Assembly: GCA_963783305.1 (NCBI GenBank)
Contig: CAWAMW010000016.1
Span: 1 to 64,000 of the forward strand
Reading direction: 5' to 3'
Length of the DNA stretch: 64,000 nucleotides
Origin: an uncultured Gemmatimonadales bacterium
Lineage (GTDB): Bacteria > Gemmatimonadota > Gemmatimonadetes > Longimicrobiales > RSA9
Positions 24,001 to 33,000 of this stretch are shown in pieces (the stretch's first letter is position 1; every line of letters starts with the position of its first letter). Position numbers: made by a program.

Positions 24001-27000
24001 CGAGGCCAGCGAGCGGTCGCGGGAGTGGGATCGTGAGGGGATCCAGTACCACTACGACGCCGGCAACGACTTCTTCCAGCTCTTCCTGGACCGGCGCATG
24101 GTCTACTCGTGCGCCTACTTCCCGACGGGGGAGGAGACGCTGGACGAGGCGCAGGAAAAGAAGCTGGACCACATCTGCGGGAAGCTCCGGCTGCGGGAGG
24201 GCGACCGGTTCCTGGACATCGGCTGCGGCTGGGGGGCGCTGGTGATCCACGCGGCCGAGCGGTACGGCGCCCGGGCGCTCGGTGTGACGCTGAGCGAGAA
24301 GCAGCACGCGCTCGCCCTGCGCCGTATCGAGGAGGCGGGGCTCGGGGACCGGGCGGAAGTGCGTCTGATGGACTACCGGGACGTGGGGAAGGATGCCGCG
24401 AACGGGGAGGAGGCGTTCGACAAGATCGCCAGCGTGGGGATGTTCGAGCACGTGGGCCGCGAGCGTCTGCCGGAGTACTTCGACCACGTGTACCGGCTCC
24501 TCCGGCCGAACGGGCTCTTCCTGAACCACGGGATCGCGGGCAAGCCGGTCCAGCGGTCGCGGGTGGGATCGATCCTGCACCGGGTCCTGAACCCCGTCCT
24601 GATCGGCGGGACGACGTTCCGCAAGCGCTACATCTTCCCGTCGGGTGGACTGGTCCCGGTGAGCGAGGCGAACCTGGTGGCGCAGCGGTCGGGCTTCGAG
24701 GTGCGGGACGTAGAGAACCTCCGGGAGCACTACGCCCGCACGCTCGGCCTCTGGGCCCAGCGCCTGGAGAGCCGGAAGGAGGAGGCGATCCGCGTGGGTG
24801 GCGAGCGGATGTACCGGCTTTGGCGCATCTACATGGGCATCGGCTCGTGGCAGTTCGAGGGCGGCGAGTTCGATCTCGGGCAGTCGCTTCTGCTCCGCCC
24901 GGACGGCGGCCCGAGCACGCTCCCGCTGAGCCGCGCCGACCTGTACCGCTGACCGGCGCGGCCCGGACCGGGGAGGGCCCGGACGGTGCGCGTCAGCCGC
25001 AGCCGGCCTTCTTGGGCGCTTTCCGTGCCTCGAGCTTCACCTTGGGCTCGAACTGGAACCACGGCGCGTACAGACCCGGCTCCGGCGCCGACGCCTCGTG
25101 GGACGCGCCGTACGCCCGGTCCATGACGTGCCGGAAGGGCTCGTCGATGGAGGGCGGCCGTGGCCGCGCGCGCCGGTTGGAAGCGAGGGTGGTGGCGGGG
25201 CGCGTGGTGCAGAGCGCGTGGCCGTGCGGGAACACGTCGAGCCAGCCGTTCACGCCGCCCTCGAGCAGGTAGACGTTGGGCACTTTGGCGGCGGTGAGCA
25301 GCTTCCACGCCTCGGCCGCCACGGATTCGCCGTTGCCCATGAGGACGTAAACGGACCGGGCGGGCTCCTGGAGGAGAACGGGCTTGAGGGCGGCCACGGC
25401 CGAGGGGTCCACACGGCGGGCATCCCGGAGGTGGAAGAGGTTGAAGTCGGGCTCCGAGCGGAGATCGAGGAGAACGAGGTTCAGGGCGTCGTTGTGCATG
25501 AGTCCGAGCAGCTCGCCCGGATGGATCTGGACCTCCCGGTTCGCCAGCCGCGCCTGCTGCACGTCGGCGATCCGCTCCCAGCGGTCATCCAGCGTCGGCT
25601 GCCCCATGAGGAGCGTGGCCAGCGCCGCGGCCACGAGGCCGGCGGCCCCCGCCACGCGGACGGTGCGGGTCCGGGGTCCACGGCGGGCGGGCTCCACGGT
25701 TTCGCGGAAGTGGGCCTCGAGCCATTCGGCGCCCACGAAGAGGGCGAGCGCCATCAGAATGATGCCGACCACCACCACCCCGGTATCCAGCCCGAGCCAT
25801 GCGGGGATGGTGAGGCGGCCGTAGCTGGAGCTGTGCCAGAAGCCGTCATAGAGGTGCACGGTCTCGCCGAACGCGAACACTCCCGCCAGGACCCCGATGA
25901 CGAAGGCGACGCCGTCGAGCTTGAGGGTGGCGGCGGCGACCAGGGACGTCCCGGGACAGAAGCCGCCGATGATGAACCCGGCGCCCATGATGAGACCGCC
26001 GACGATCCCGGGCCACAGGTACGTCGGGTTGACGCCGAGCATCTCGTAATCCAGCCATCCGAGAGCGGAGGCGCCGAAGATGAGGACCATGGCCGTCACG
26101 ATGGCGGTGAACATCACCTTCAGGACGGTGAGGTCGCGGAGGTAGAACTGCGCCGCGAGCTTCCGGGAGTTGCCGAACCCCGCCATCTCCAGCACGGCGC
26201 CGAACCCGATGCCGATGGCGAGATATACCAGGTGTGTGCCGGTGGGGCCGAGGGCCGCCTGCAGGTCGAAGGGAGCCATGGTCTACCTCCAGGCGCGGCG
26301 GAAGAAGAAGGCGAGGGCATACGCGCCGGCGAACACCGCGAACATGAAGGCCCAGCTGCCCGCGGCCAGGGTGGCGCCGCCGGAGAGGGCCTGGCCCGAG
26401 GTGCAGCCCCGGGCGAAGCGGGCGCCATAGCCCATGATGGCGCCTCCCAGCAGCGCGAGCATCCAGCGGGTGCGGGGCGTGATCCGTGGTCCGCGGTTCG
26501 TCTCCACGCGAACCCGGCGGTTCAGCCAGCCCGAGAGGAACCCTCCCAGGAGCGTCCCCGCGACCACCCAGACGACCCAGTGGTCGAGGGGGTTCAGGTC
26601 GCCGCCGGCCATCCCGAGGAGGTAGGGCGTCCGATCGACGTGGCCGGGTACGACCAGGTCCTCCAGGAAGACCGTGGCGCGGCTCATGGCGCCCGAGGCG
26701 CCGAGCCCGTTCCCGGTGATGAAGAACGCCGCGAAGAGCACCACGCCCAGCAGCGCTCCGGCAATGTAGGGGTCCGTGTAAGGCCGCGGGGGCCGTTCTG
26801 CGTTCAGTGCGAGTTTCATGGTCTCGATGGGTGACATGATGGTAGCGCGCTAGACGAGGGCGCCCTCCGCCTCTTCGGGCGACGGCTGGGGTTCATCCGT
26901 CCATCCCTCGTCCACCTCTTCCCAGCCCACGACCATGGCCCGCACGTTCAATGTGGGGGTATGGCCCGTGGTCGTGAGGTAGAGGTGCATGAGGAGGAAG

Positions 27001-30000: not shown

Positions 30001-33000
30001 GCCGCGCGTCCCCGTGAACGTCACCCGTGTGGCAGTCGGCGCACCCCACCTGGTTCGCCGCGTCCAGGCTCACGGAGAGCGCCCGCCCCTTTATCTCGTG
30101 GTGCTCGCCCTGATGACAGTCCGTGCACAGGAAGTCGTGGCGCCCCATGTGGACGTCCAGCCGATCCGACGGGAAGTACAGCGTCTCGTCCAGGTCGCCG
30201 TGCTTCACGGCGTTCCCGCCACCACCGGAGAAATGGCACGCGCCACAGTTCTCCCTCGTTGGCAGCCCCACGCTGCGCGCCGACTCCACCAGGTCCACAC
30301 CCTCCGCCACCCGGCCGGCCGTCCCCTTCGCGTAGCCGCCGGAGCGGTCGTGGCAGGCTAGGCAGTCCACGTTCTCCACTCGCGTGAAGTCGTAGTTCTC
30401 GTCCTCCCAGCCGTAGCCCGCGTGGCACGACGTGCACGCCGGCCAGTTCCCGCGGATCCCGATGCAGAAGTTGTTTACCGCGGTCTTCTTGCCCAGGCGC
30501 ACCGGTGCGGGCCGACCCTCCAGCTCCACCGGGGGGCTCTCCCAGGTGAAATGGGCCGAGCGCAGCATCTCTTCGCCCGCGTCCTCGTGGCACTCGAGAC
30601 ACGCCCGGGTCACCGCCGGACCGTCCTCGAACGGACCGGCCAGCAACGCCGAGTGGTCCATCGTGGGGAGCCGCTCCGGCACGTGCGACCACGGGTCGTC
30701 CGCGTCGTCGCCATGCGGCCAGCCCAGCACCACCACGGGGACCATTACAACTACCGTCAGGGCCGCGGCTAGAACCGCGCCCGCCCGATTCGCACTTGCC
30801 ATCGTATATCCTTCATCCGGCCGCCTGCGCCGGCTGTATTACATGGTCAAACAGACATATGGAGTGTAGGCGCTGGCGCCGGGGGCGAAAGACGGGCTAC
30901 TCCCCATATGGGTGTAGGGGAAATGCCGTCATGGACGTAGGGAGGTCAGGGGTTCGGCGGCGGCACGGTCGGGAGCGGGGCGGCCTGTTCGTCCGCGCTT
31001 TCACCGGCCACCTGGCGCTCGTACAGGCTCAGGATGTCTGCGCGGGAGACGACGCCCACGAGCCGACCGGTTTCCTGGTCGACGACCGGGAGCATGCCAG
31101 TGCCGCGAGCGCCCATGCGGCGGATGGCGGTCAGGAGCGAGTCGTCGGGGTGGACGGTCTCGACGGGGTCGGCGATATCGGAGGCCAGGAGGACGGGCCC
31201 GATGTCGCTGTGGTCGCGGGCGAGGCGGCCGATCTCGCTGATCCGCACGACGCCCATGACCCGCAGTGCCTCGTCCACCACCGGGTAGACGGTCTGCTCG
31301 CCGCGTCCGAGGTGCTCGAGGAGCTGTGCCACGGAGGCGTCCTCACCCACCACCTGCGGGTTCTCCTCCATGGCGTCCGTGACCGTGAGTGTGGCAAGGA
31401 CGTCTCGGGCGACGCCGCGTTCGAGGTCGTGTCCGCGGCGCCGGAGCCAGCCGCTGTAGAGCGAGTCCGGCTCGAAGCGCTTCGCCACGTTGTAGCTGAT
31501 CACCACCGCCAGCATGAGCGGGAGGACGATGGCGTAGTCGTTCGTCATCTCGAAGACCATGAGGACGGCGGCGAGGGGTGCGTCCGTAGCGGCGGCGAAA
31601 ACGGCGCCCATGCCGACGAGCGCGTAGGCCTCCGGCTGGAGGTTCATGCCGGGGAAGATGGATTCGAGCGCAACGCCGAAGGCGGCGCCGGTGGTGGCGC
31701 CGACGAAGAGGGACGGGGCGAAGACGCCGCCGGAGCCTCCGCTGTTGAGGGTGAGGGAGGTCGCGATGATCTCACCGAGGGCCAGGAGGGCGAGGGCGAG
31801 CCAGGGCAGGGTGGTGAGCACGTCGAGGCGGATGGCGAGATGGCCGTAGCCGACGAGATTGCCGCGGCTGAGGAGGACCAGGGTGCCGACCAGGGCGCCG
31901 CCGATCCACGGCACCGCGGCCGCGGGCAGTCGCACGCGCTCCCGCAGCGATTCCGTGGCGAAGAAGGTGCGAACGAAGAGCACCGTCACCAGGCCGGCGG
32001 CGACCCCAAGGAGCGGGTAGAAGAGGAAGACCTCGCCGGCGGAGTGATAGCCGTACTCCATGGGAATCACGAGGGCCGGGTGGTCGCCGAAAACGGATCG
32101 GGACACCATGGCCGCCACTACGCTCGCGATGACGATGGGCGCGAACGCGGCCACGGCGAACCCGCCGAGGATCTCCTCGAGGGCGAAGAAGGCGCCGGCG
32201 AGGGGCGTGTTGAACGCGGCGGAGATGCCGGCTGCGGCGCCGGCGGCGACCAGCACCTTGACGCGGGAGGCGTCGAAGTGGAAGAGGCGGCCGAGGAAAG
32301 ACCCGGTGGTGGAGCCGATGACCGCCAGTGGGCCCTCGCTGCCGGCCGCGCCCCCGCTCCCGAGGGTAACGATGCTGGCGGCGATACGGGCGAGGGTGGA
32401 ACGGAACGGTAGCATGCCGCCGTTGCGCGCCACAGCCAGCTGGATGAGGGGGATGAGCTGAGTGGAGCGGGGCCGCTCGTCGCGCGCCGCGGCGTACCGG
32501 CGGACGATGGCGGCGGAGGCTGCGAACCCGAGCGCGGTAAGGAGCGGCCGGTAGAAGGGGAAGTCGGGACTGGGCAACTCCTCCGCCAGCCAGCCGTACA
32601 GGAGTCCGAACGCCAGGTCGATCAGGTAGAAGAAGACGATGACTCCCGCCGCCCCCGCGACGCCGATCACCACGCCGAACAGCAGAAGGATCGTGTCCTC
32701 GCCCAGGCCCAGTCCCTCGAACCATTGGACGAAGCCGCGCCACCGTCCGCGGGTGCGGACGAGGGCACGACCCCGGTGGCGGTGGGTGCTCTGCTTGTTC
32801 ATTGCGCCGCAAGATGCGCCCATGTGCGCGGCGATTCAATCCCGGGCTCCAACGTTCCCGTGTGCCAGCGCGTCATTGACCCGTAACCCTGTCAACGGCT
32901 CACACCGGAGTACTGCAATGCAGCCGAACCGCCTTCCGCGCGTGCTGGCCCTCTCGATGGCCGCCGCGCTCGCACCCTTCAACGTGCCCGCCGTCCAGGC

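What a model noticed while it worked through the whole genome (the two positions that open the first line are those of the whole stretch)
24993..30802. Octahaem tetrathionate-reductase gene set with a heptahaem-cytochrome b fusion and YeeE-rhodanese transporters
Four adjacent minus-strand genes encode an Otr-type octahaem cytochrome (g02757), an 831-aa protein whose N-terminal 570 residues hold seven CxxCH motifs and whose C-terminus is a PhsC/YdhU-type membrane cytochrome b (g02756), and two YeeE/YedE-type sulfur-compound transporters, one fused to a rhodanese (g02754-g02755). Boldest reading: the fusion protein is the quinol-oxidising electron donor of Otr, and the set forms a chain that reduces tetrathionate outside, imports the thiosulfate made and hands its sulfur to the Dsr pathway 30 kb downstream. 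New would be a membrane partner for Otr and a link between tetrathionate respiration and YeeE-type thiosulfate uptake.
Evidence so far: pfam.tsv: Cytochrome_cB 292-450 of g02757 (E 7e-64; NCBIfam 'tetrathionate reductase family octaheme c-type cytochrome'); Ni_hydr_CYTB 616-805 of g02756, 36% identical to Salmonella PhsC over residues 572-808; Sulf_transp in g02754 (with Rhodanese 256-347) and g02755. CxxCH: g02757 8; g02756 7, at residues 74-504. neighbours.tsv: Sulf_transp within two genes of Cytochrome_cB in 1509 of 5068 genomes that have both (30%), 5 in the order. Cytochrome_cB is rare in the phylum: 11 of 2019 genomes, 6 of 457 in the order. The dsr/apr/sat cluster starts at C16:60523.
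(Added by a program. Inside this text positions count along the whole contig: contig position 1 is position 1 of the stretch shown here. "Call 12" and the like, gene names such as g00115 and contig names such as C1 are that model's own, and its searches are not shown. The text may have been shortened before it was handed on; [...] marks where a part breaks off. The agent that wrote the report below was given it as the finding of a first reader that could run no searches.)

Follow-up and report, generated by a model that had tools for sequence, protein, structure and literature searches.

The report
Otr cytochrome operon with sulfur-carrier channel

Summary
Four tightly packed minus-strand genes (24993-30802) encode an Otr-family octahaem cytochrome, a 7-haem c / dihaem cytochrome b fusion, and a split YeeE channel whose larger half carries a rhodanese-like domain.

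The set is one copy of a cassette. Relatives of the fusion occur at 756 places in a one-genome-per-species collection. In the best 80 loci, otr lies directly upstream in 71 of 72 with room, and both YeeE halves lie downstream in 67 of 68.

The fusion's haem-c domain is an Otr paralogue that has lost the catalytic haem, so a role as Otr's quinol-linked electron wire is well supported by inference.

The import-to-Dsr reading is not supported:
- The rhodanese-like domain lacks the catalytic Cys (Met instead).
- It is predicted to face the periplasm.
- It ends in a conserved SoxY-like GGCG arm, whose Cys is a TGA (probable selenocysteine) codon in one clade of 5 loci.
- dsrA was found in only 5 of 50 cassette genomes. 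Here dsrAB lies about 51 kb away.

Most likely the cassette performs quinol-driven reduction of a sulfur compound that is held on, or handed over by, the arm. This scan has reported the same cassette at least nine times on other DNA. I found no paper that describes it.

The parts
29342..30802 (-). otr: Otr-family octahaem cytochrome c, 486 aa, with a hydrophobic N-terminus (residues 1-31) that is a signal peptide or a membrane anchor
   Evidence: TIGR04315 scores 567.7 bits (cut-off 375) and there are 8 CxxCH motifs. The match to Shewanella OTR, PDB 1SP3, is 506 bits at E 9e-151. K105 aligns with the haem-2 ligand K56 and C113 with C64, and both are invariant in 38 of 38 aligned homologues.
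26850..29345 (-). Fusion protein, 831 aa: N-terminal anchor or signal, a periplasmic heptahaem c domain (an Otr paralogue without the catalytic haem), then 5 TM helices holding a PhsC/FdnI/HyaC-type dihaem cytochrome b
   Evidence: The start overlaps the otr stop as ATGA. Seven CxxCH motifs and His 624, 659, 773 and 787 are invariant in 23 sequences. hhalign against the Otr alignment gives probability 98.6% and E 8.8e-16 over 353 columns, with no counterpart of the Otr haem-2 motif. PF01292 scores 81.2 bits. PDB profile hits are HyaC at E 1.8e-4 and FdnI at E 9e-3.
26283..26837 (-). Small half of a split YeeE-type channel, 184 aa, equivalent to helices H8-H13 of YeeE, predicted N-in and C-in, with Cys145 in an RGCTSG motif
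   Evidence: Sulf_transp scores 73.1 bits on profile positions 178-309. The weak alignment to S. thermophila YeeE residues 240-331 (E 0.043) puts C145 on C293.
24993..26279 (-). Large half of the split YeeE channel (H1-H7, Cys108 in GGFCPG), an extra eighth TM helix (206-227), a rhodanese-like domain without catalytic Cys (about 235-350), and a C-terminal tail ending in the arm motif GCG
   Evidence: Sulf_transp scores 46.3 bits and Rhodanese 42.7 bits. In the 68-sequence alignment only C108 (68 of 68) and C427 (63 of 68) are conserved Cys, and the catalytic-loop position is Met or Ser. The AF2 model has pLDDT 82.2. Foldseek matches rhodanese domains at TM 0.7-0.79.
30803..30945 (-). 143-nt region upstream of otr, where the promoter presumably lies. 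There is no ArsR gene here, unlike most relatives.
   Evidence: Sequence read. The consensus scan found no promoter. An ArsR gene is adjacent in 51 of 69 related loci with room. The best ArsR relative in this genome is on another contig at 37% identity.

Best explanation
The four genes form one operon that encodes a membrane-bound, periplasm-facing reductase system.

Proposed electron path: quinol is oxidised at the PhsC/FdnI-type dihaem cytochrome b part of the fusion protein. Electrons cross the membrane through the two b haems. They then run along the seven c haems of the fused domain, which is an Otr duplicate stripped of its catalytic haem, and enter the eight haems of Otr. Otr's lysine-ligated haem 2 reduces the substrate.

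Proposed substrate: a sulfur compound with an S-S bond, such as tetrathionate, another polythionate, or a persulfide/thiosulfonate adduct. I propose it is captured on, or handed over by, the cysteine at the tip of a flexible arm. The arm hangs in the periplasm from a catalytically dead rhodanese-like domain, which is tethered to one half of a two-piece YeeE channel. The product (thiosulfate or sulfane sulfur) then passes through the channel along its two conserved cysteines into the cell.

Shown: gene order, tight coupling, conservation across phyla, the haem and ligand motifs, homology of the wire domain to Otr, loss of the rhodanese Cys, and conservation of the arm Cys with a TGA codon in its place in one clade.

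Inferred: the electron path, the topology, the direction of the reaction, the identity of the substrate, and any contact between the arm and Otr.
For: - Family size. The fusion family has 984 hits among 8000 scored candidates, and the top 120 all score above 690 bits at full length. Relatives occur at 756 places in a one-genome-per-species collection.
- Synteny. In the best 80 loci the order otr, fusion, small YeeE half, large YeeE half with rhodanese is kept on one strand. otr is present in 71 of 72 loci with room, and both halves in 67 of 68. The loci span Chloroflexota, KSB1, Bacteroidota, Gemmatimonadota, Pseudomonadota and Neomarinimicrobiota bins.
- Otr. All Otr hallmarks are present.
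- Wire domain. It is homologous to Otr but lacks the haem-2 motif.
- Cytochrome b part. Four invariant TM histidines and positively charged inside loops place the haem-c domain outside.
- Channel topology. YeeE has its N-terminus outside and H7 reverses the topology (PMC7449682, passages). The large half matches YeeE residues 6-117, adds H7 plus an extra TM helix after a net-positive loop, and so puts the rhodanese-like domain and arm outside.
- Channel cysteines. C108 and C145 correspond to the two YeeE cysteines whose mutation abolished complementation (PMC7449682).
- Arm. A GGCG end is found in 63 of 68 homologues. In 5 loci forming one clade the Cys codon is TGA, followed by Gly and then a stop. 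In 3 loci the C108 codon is TGA. selB is present in the three such genomes tested.
- Independent hint. In lucinid symbionts a divergent soxY/soxZ pair lies beside an otr gene (PMC11237559, passages).
Against: - No experiment bears on any step.
- Purified Shewanella OTR reduces nitrite and hydroxylamine as well as tetrathionate, and there it takes electrons from CymA via STC, not from a fused cytochrome b (PMC4484225, passages).
- The topology rests on homology and the positive-inside rule, not on a dedicated predictor or an experiment.
- The hairpins after the TGA codons do not fold better than shuffled sequence (z -0.57, -0.73 and -1.87).
- The arm TGA forms trace to a single evolutionary event.
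- One locus (L010) has the fusion without otr or YeeE.
- This window lacks the ArsR regulator that 51 of 69 relatives have, so its regulation here is unknown.
Confidence: 0.55

Rival explanations
1. Otr reduces free tetrathionate outside the cell. The split YeeE imports the thiosulfate made. A cytoplasmic rhodanese strips its sulfane sulfur and passes it to the Dsr pathway.
For: - In-vitro tetrathionate reductase activity of the Otr family is on record (Mowat 2004, seen only as cited in PMC5317091 and PMC4484225).
- YeeE is a proven thiosulfate importer (PMC7449682).
- This genome has dsrAB, dsrC, sat, qmo and apr.
- The four other dsrA-positive cassette genomes of this small clade (L005, L019, L035, L073) group with the window in the fusion tree.
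Against: - The rhodanese-like domain has Met at the catalytic Cys position, and there is no Cys there in 65 of 68 homologues.
- The domain is predicted to be periplasmic.
- dsrA was found in only 5 of 50 cassette genomes (these are incomplete bins, so this is a lower bound).
- dsrAB is about 51 kb away with unrelated genes between.
- In two relatives dsrA lies on a different contig from the cassette.
Confidence: 0.13
2. The module handles selenium (or tellurium), not sulfur. The arm thiol or selenol captures selenite as a selenotrisulfide-type adduct. Otr reduces it. The YedE-like split channel brings the selenium in for SelD.
For: - The small half scores best, though far below cut-off, on the YedE/FdhT selenium model (35.7 bits; TsuA models 31 and 21.3).
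- Sec replaces the arm Cys and the channel Cys in some loci.
- An ArsR-type regulator heads most cassettes.
- selD scores over cut-off in 44 of 51 cassette genomes, including this one.
- A review lists the Otr and YeeE families among selenoproteins (PMC13188914, passages).
Against: - selD is equally common without the cassette. It is present in 322 of 401 genomes of this phylum sample, against 3 of 401 with Otr, so the co-occurrence says nothing.
- All family scores are far below cut-off.
- Use of Sec marks a reactive residue, not a selenium substrate.
Confidence: 0.1
3. The system runs in reverse. Otr oxidises thiosulfate or arm-bound reduced sulfur and feeds the electrons through the fusion into the quinone pool, like a membrane-bound TsdA or Sox analogue.
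For: - The arm resembles the SoxY carrier of an oxidative pathway.
- The window's nearest cassette relatives carry dsrA, which may be of the oxidative type, and the dsr cluster here includes a DsrL-like gene.
Against: - From recalled redox potentials, the tetrathionate/thiosulfate couple is more positive than the quinone couples, so electron flow into quinone would be uphill.
- PhsC, FdnI and CbcL-type cytochromes b with periplasmic partners are known as quinol oxidisers or transmembrane wires (PMC9129911, passages).
Confidence: 0.1
4. Otr here is a nitrite/hydroxylamine reductase for ammonification or detoxification, and the YeeE genes are functionally separate neighbours.
For: Shewanella OTR reduces nitrite and hydroxylamine efficiently in vitro (PMC4484225, passages, citing Atkinson 2007).
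Against: - The YeeE halves follow the fusion in 67 of 68 loci with room, across several phyla, with gaps of 3-12 nt here. Chance neighbours would not be kept like this.
- No nitrogen-cycle gene is conserved in the flanks in the all-against-all clustering.
Confidence: 0.07

Closest known systems
Octahaem tetrathionate reductase OTR of Shewanella oneidensis (PDB 1SP3; TIGR04315)
   Same: Full-length match at 506 bits and E 9e-151. Eight CxxCH motifs. The lysine that ligates catalytic haem 2 and the nearby Cys64 are both conserved.
   Different: This Otr has a conserved hydrophobic N-terminus. It is translationally coupled to its own quinol-linked wire and to a split YeeE with a carrier arm. Shewanella OTR is soluble and is fed by CymA through STC (PMC4484225).
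CbcL of Geobacter sulfurreducens (multihaem c / dihaem b fusion, inner-membrane quinol oxidoreductase)
   Same: One polypeptide joins a periplasmic multihaem c domain to a membrane dihaem cytochrome b (PMC9129911, passages).
   Different: Seven c haems rather than nine, and 5 predicted TM helices rather than six. The c domain is an Otr paralogue. It serves a dedicated terminal reductase encoded next door, not extracellular electron transfer. I made no direct sequence comparison with CbcL.
PhsC / FdnI / HyaC cytochrome b subunits (PF01292)
   Same: Pfam hit at 81.2 bits, four invariant TM histidines, and profile hits to HyaC and FdnI structures.
   Different: The PhsC equivalog model scores 142 bits, below its cut-off of 204. 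The domain is fused to haem c and is not partnered with a molybdopterin or NiFe enzyme.
YeeE/TsuA thiosulfate importer with YeeD/TsuB (PDB 6LEO, 8K1R)
   Same: Sulf_transp fold. The two cysteines whose mutation abolished complementation are kept. The inverted-repeat logic is preserved (PMC7449682).
   Different: The protein is split into two genes at the repeat boundary. There is no YeeD/TusA partner. Instead there is an extra TM helix, an outward-facing dead rhodanese-like domain and a Cys arm. TsuA models score 21.3 and 31 bits against cut-offs of 645 and 400.
SoxY of the SoxYZ sulfur carrier
   Same: A Gly-Gly-Cys-Gly type motif at the very C-terminus on a flexible tail, in the periplasm. 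The SoxY motif itself is recalled, not taken from a call.
   Different: No SoxY fold or Pfam hit and no SoxZ partner. The arm hangs from a rhodanese-like domain tethered to a membrane channel. It resembles SoxY in how it may work but is not a member of that family.

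Membership tests
Otr family (TIGR04315 / PF11783) | Score above the curated cut-off over the full length | tested here: met
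   567.7 bits against a cut-off of 375, model positions 2-440 of 440.
Otr family (TIGR04315 / PF11783) | Eight CxxCH motifs, with haem 2 ligated by a lysine that lies outside the motif | tested here: met
   8 CxxCH motifs. K105 aligns with K56 of 1SP3 and is invariant in 38 of 38 homologues. Ligation itself cannot be shown from sequence.
Otr family (TIGR04315 / PF11783) | Tetrathionate, nitrite or hydroxylamine reductase activity | not testable with these tools
   Needs an enzyme assay.
CbcL-type c/b fusion quinol oxidoreductase | Dihaem cytochrome b membrane domain with four His ligands | tested here: met
   PF01292 at 81.2 bits. H624, H659, H773 and H787 are invariant in 23 sequences.
CbcL-type c/b fusion quinol oxidoreductase | Periplasmic multihaem c domain on the same polypeptide | tested here: met
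   7 invariant CxxCH motifs in residues 74-508, between an N-terminal anchor and the first TM helix of the b domain.
CbcL-type c/b fusion quinol oxidoreductase | Sequence homology to CbcL itself | not tested
The c domain is homologous to Otr instead.
PhsC thiosulfate reductase cytochrome b (PRK15006) | Score above the equivalog cut-off | tested here: not met
   142.1 bits against a cut-off of 204. Related, but not an equivalog.
YeeE/TsuA thiosulfate transporter | Sulf_transp domain with the two essential Cys (C91 and C293 of S. thermophila YeeE) | tested here: met
   Pfam scores of 46.3 and 73.1 bits. C108 is present in 68 of 68 homologues. A GC[TS]SG-like motif is present in 68 of 78 small-half ORFs.
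YeeE/TsuA thiosulfate transporter | Single polypeptide that scores above the TsuA model cut-offs, with a YeeD/TusA partner | tested here: not met
   Split into two genes. NF041049 scores 21.3 (cut-off 645) and NF052577 scores 31 (cut-off 400). No TusA-like gene appears among the conserved neighbours.
Rhodanese sulfurtransferase | Rhodanese fold | tested here: met
   PF00581 at 42.7 bits. Foldseek TM scores, normalised to the target, of 0.7-0.79 to single-domain rhodaneses.
Rhodanese sulfurtransferase | Catalytic cysteine in the active-site loop | tested here: not met
   Met314 aligns with the catalytic Cys of 6MXV. The loop position is Met in 53 of 68 homologues. The next residue is Ser in 60 and Cys in 3.
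SoxY carrier | C-terminal Gly-Gly-Cys-Gly(-Gly) arm | tested here: met
   GGCG or GCG at the C-terminus in 63 of 68 homologues, and TGA at the Cys codon in 5 further loci. The SoxY motif is recalled.
SoxY carrier | SoxY fold with a SoxZ partner | tested here: not met
   No SoxY or SoxZ Pfam hit in the cassette. The domain is rhodanese-like.

The most novel reading that the evidence does not exclude
Otr is a carrier-dependent reductase. Its natural substrate would be a sulfur (or selenium) adduct held covalently on the Cys/Sec tip of a membrane-tethered periplasmic arm, not a free ion. That would make this cassette the reductive, quinol-driven counterpart of the SoxYZ-based oxidative system. 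The reduced chalcogen would then be relayed cysteine to cysteine through the split YeeE channel into the cell.
Probability: 0.3. Interest if true: 0.85.

Novelty: new variant of a known kind. Interest (0 to 1): 0.7.

Why it matters
The physiological role and electron donor of Otr have been unclear since its structure was solved in 2004. It reduces tetrathionate, nitrite and hydroxylamine in vitro.

A cassette kept intact in hundreds of species, mostly uncultured Anaerolineae from soils, sediments and sludge, gives Otr three things:
- a dedicated quinol-linked wire;
- an invariant sulfur-trafficking partner;
- a candidate carrier arm.

This turns the open question into a defined set of experiments on four proteins. 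It would also add an unrecognised route to the cycling of sulfur intermediates in anoxic habitats.

For this genome in particular, the cassette is a patchily distributed, probably acquired module. It is not part of the Dsr pathway.

Tried and rejected
- Co-folding of Otr (45-486) with the rhodanese-arm part (228-428), each with its own alignment, scored 0.01 against a mark of 0.32. This gives no verdict.
- Search for sequencing runs: no RNA holder is listed. One soil-metagenome DNA run holds 0.48 of the sampled words and may be the source. I did not lay reads.
- RNA folding of the 55 nt after the three TGA codons gives 6-bp GC hairpins 15-17 nt downstream with GUU or GGU loops, but z-scores of only -0.57, -0.73 and -1.87. 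This suggests a SECIS element but does not prove one.
- selD co-occurrence: 44 of 51 cassette genomes against a background of 322 of 401 in this phylum. I rejected it as evidence for a selenium role.
- Physical dsr-cassette linkage in the relatives G016 and G007: the dsrA contigs differ in length from the cassette contigs.
- The consensus promoter and terminator scan found nothing useful.
- No cassette-type ArsR gene lies near the operon.
- Foldseek on the whole large-half model returned only rhodanese domains, with no YeeE hit at E <= 0.001. The YeeE relation rests on sequence profiles.
- Six literature searches found no description of the cassette.

Full report
**The observation**

The four minus-strand genes exist as described.
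- otr (29342-30802, 486 aa) scores 567.7 bits on TIGR04315 (cut-off 375) and has eight CxxCH motifs.
- The next gene most likely starts at the ATG at 29345. That ATG overlaps the otr stop codon as ATGA.
- The 831-aa protein has seven CxxCH motifs between C74 and C504. Its C-terminal cytochrome b domain scores 81.2 bits on PF01292. The PhsC model PRK15006 scores 142 bits, below its cut-off of 204.
- Two Sulf_transp genes follow after gaps of 12 and 3 nt. The small one is 184 aa and matches the C-terminal half of the Pfam profile. The large one is 428 aa, matches the N-terminal half, and adds a Rhodanese hit at residues 256-347.
- The flanking genes are unrelated: a ClC channel upstream, and a convergent cyclopropane-fatty-acid synthase and an M61 peptidase downstream.

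**A widely conserved cassette**

The fusion protein belongs to a large family.
- Of 8000 candidates scored, 984 had E <= 1e-3. The best 120 all score above 690 bits at full length. Sources name them only as cytochrome b or thiosulfate-reductase cytochrome b proteins.
- All seven CxxCH motifs and four transmembrane histidines are invariant in an alignment of 23 members.
I examined the best 80 loci.
- otr lies directly upstream in 71 of the 72 loci that have at least 1.5 kb of upstream DNA.
- Both YeeE halves lie downstream in 67 of the 68 loci that have at least 2 kb of downstream DNA. The only exception in both counts is L010. There the neighbours are a nucleotidyl transferase and a DsbA-isomerase protein.
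- The loci are mostly Chloroflexota/Anaerolineae bins. They also include KSB1, Bacteroidota-labelled, Gemmatimonadota, Lysobacterales and Neomarinimicrobiota bins.
- All-against-all clustering of the flanking ORFs found one further conserved gene, an ArsR-family regulator of about 107 aa. It is adjacent on the same strand in 51 of 69 loci with room. A Cys-containing N-terminal motif occurs in 55 of 58 copies.
- This window has no such gene upstream of otr. The best ArsR relative in the genome lies on another contig at 37% identity.

**Otr and its wire**

- Otr matches Shewanella OTR (PDB 1SP3) over its full length at 506 bits and E 9e-151. The haem-2 lysine ligand K56 and Cys64 correspond to K105 and C113, which are invariant in 38 of 38 cassette Otrs.
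- Lysine ligation from outside the CxxCH motif, and haem II as the catalytic haem, are stated in PMC12285233 and PMC4484225 (passages read).
- A profile-profile comparison shows that the fusion's heptahaem domain is itself an Otr paralogue. Probability is 98.6% and E is 8.8e-16 over 353 columns, with fusion residues 61-515 aligned to Otr residues 57-456. It has no counterpart of Otr's haem-2 motif. I read it as an Otr duplicate reduced to an electron wire.
- Hydropathy and charge counts predict an N-terminal anchor, an external haem domain (40-569) and five TM helices. The two loops predicted to be cytoplasmic are rich in Lys and Arg: 7 against 1 acidic residue, and 10 against 5.
- The closest described architecture is CbcL of Geobacter, with nine c haems on a six-helix dihaem cytochrome b (PMC9129911, passages). 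I did not compare the sequences.
- A membrane partner for Otr is not a wholly new idea. The Thermosulfurimonas dismutans genome paper supposed that an adjacent cytochrome b anchors its Otr (PMC4911364, passages).

**The YeeE halves and the rhodanese-like domain**

- YeeE has nine TM helices and four short helices, with the N-terminus outside. Helix H7 reverses the topology between its two halves. In S. thermophila YeeE, the C91A and C293A mutants failed to complement while C22A did complement (PMC7449682, passages).
- The large half here aligns with YeeE residues 6-117. Its AF2 model (pLDDT 82.2, pTM 0.79) shows the helices expected for H1-H7. A short loop follows, then an eighth long helix (202-225), then the rhodanese-like domain.
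- That loop is net positive in nearly all of the 68 homologues and here has 5 Lys/Arg.
- With the N-terminus outside, the rhodanese-like domain and everything after it face the periplasm. This is an inference from homology and the positive-inside rule.
- The small half aligns weakly with YeeE residues 240-331 (E 0.043), which puts C145 on C293.
- In the 68-sequence alignment of the large half only two cysteines are conserved: C108 in GGFCPG (68 of 68) and C427 near the C-terminus (63 of 68).
- The rhodanese active-site position holds Met in 53 of 68 sequences. The next residue is Ser in 60 and Cys in only 3. Forty-four of 68 sequences have no cysteine at all between residues 235 and 400.
- In the alignment to PDB 6MXV, Met314 sits on the catalytic Cys.
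- The fold is that of rhodanese, with Foldseek TM scores of 0.7-0.79 to single-domain rhodaneses. The domain therefore cannot work as a classical sulfurtransferase.

**The arm**

- Almost every homologue ends in a basic stretch followed by Gly-Gly-Cys-Gly. The last five residues have low model confidence, as expected for a flexible tail.
- In L011, L032 and L060 the ORF stops at a TGA exactly at the Cys codon, followed by a Gly codon and then a true stop.
- A motif scan with TGA read as U found the same in L034 and L062. It also found TGA at the C108 codon in L034, L062 and L070.
- On a FastTree tree of 74 fusion proteins, the five arm-TGA loci form one clade with support 100, so this is one evolutionary event. 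The C108 TGA needs three changes on the same tree.
- selB scores over cut-off in the genomes of L032 and L060 and is found in fragments in that of L011.
- Short GC hairpins lie 15-17 nt after the TGA codons, but their folding energy is not significant.
- I read these codons as probable selenocysteine. That marks both cysteines as chemically reactive.

**The link to Dsr**

- dsrAB lie at C16:81468-83847. A DsrL-like gene, dsrN-like, dsrP, dsrC, sat, qmo and aprA lie between about 72.5 and 100 kb.
- The genes between the cassette and that region are unrelated: pyruvate kinase, an amidase, VWA proteins and others.
- Among 50 of the 80 cassette genomes, dsrA scored over cut-off in 5. These are incomplete bins, so 5 is a lower bound.
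- Four of the five (L005, L019, L035, L073) belong to the small, weakly supported group in which the window's long branch also sits. Co-occurrence within this lineage is therefore possible.
- In two of them dsrA lies on a contig different from the cassette's.
- Otr scored over cut-off in 3 of 401 sampled genomes of the window's phylum, own genome included, and in none of the 7 other genomes sampled from its family, one of them from its own genus. This fits acquisition by transfer.

**A selenium role**

- selD scores over cut-off in 44 of 51 cassette genomes, including this one, where it carries an in-frame TGA.
- It is present in 322 of 401 genomes of the same phylum sample. That tally includes the unpublished genomes G232, G207 and G107.
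- The co-occurrence therefore does not discriminate.

**Comparison with earlier work**

- Six full-text searches found no paper that describes this cassette.
- One paper reports a divergent soxY/soxZ pair next to an otr gene in lucinid symbionts (PMC11237559, passages). This is an independent hint that Otr enzymes go with cysteine-arm carriers.
- This scan has reported the same cassette on other genomes at least nine times, with the reading of a dead, outward-facing rhodanese domain and a SoxY-like arm. That reading gave me the lead to the arm.
- I re-derived its main points here from my own alignments.

**Verdict**

The wire role of the fusion is well supported by inference. The import-to-Dsr chain is not supported.

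The most likely function is quinol-driven reduction of an S-S bonded sulfur compound in the periplasm, with the arm and the split channel handling substrate or product. The substrate, the direction of the reaction and any contact between arm and Otr remain untested.

Noticed in passing
window 29300-29336 (minus strand): The first codons of the fusion gene hold a perfect 12-nt unit repeated three times, giving Thr-Leu-Gly-Arg three times in the positively charged start of the signal or anchor sequence.
   Followed up: no
L010:7920-10589: This is the only one of the 80 loci where a full-length fusion homologue stands without otr or the YeeE genes. Its neighbours are a nucleotidyl transferase and a DsbA/cyclophilin protein.
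   Followed up: partly
L034, L062, L070 (large YeeE half); L011, L032, L034, L060, L062 (arm): In-frame TGA sits at the codon of the channel Cys (GGF-C-PG) in three loci and at the arm Cys in five. L060 and L062 are near-identical, yet only L062 has the channel TGA. This could be a real difference or a sequencing error.
   Followed up: partly
G000:C13:29481-30404 (outside the window): The window's genome encodes a SelD with one in-frame TGA, so the organism probably makes selenoproteins. selD is present in 322 of 401 sampled genomes of its phylum.
   Followed up: partly
G000:C16:72500-100000 (outside the window): A full dissimilatory sulfur gene set lies here: siroheme synthesis, a DsrL-like gene, dsrN-like, dsrAB with a small 82-aa ORF after dsrB, dsrP, dsrC, sat, qmoC, a fused HdrA-like qmoAB and aprA. 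I did not determine whether it is of the oxidative or the reductive type.
   Followed up: partly
Loci L004-L080, directly upstream of otr: The cassette's ArsR-family regulators carry one conserved Cys in an N-terminal (L/M)H..(I/L)C motif in 55 of 58 copies. They mostly lack a second C-terminal Cys, unlike the two-Cys sulfane-sulfur sensors as I recall them.
   Followed up: no
window 63488-63970 (continues to C16:64585): A TauE/SafE-type sulfite exporter gene sits next to a histidine kinase, between the cassette and the dsr region.
   Followed up: no
window 32639-36250 and 30946-32823: The longest ORF of the 1203-aa Sortilin/BNR-repeat protein overlaps the ClC channel gene on the other strand by 185 nt, so its true start is probably further downstream.
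   Followed up: no
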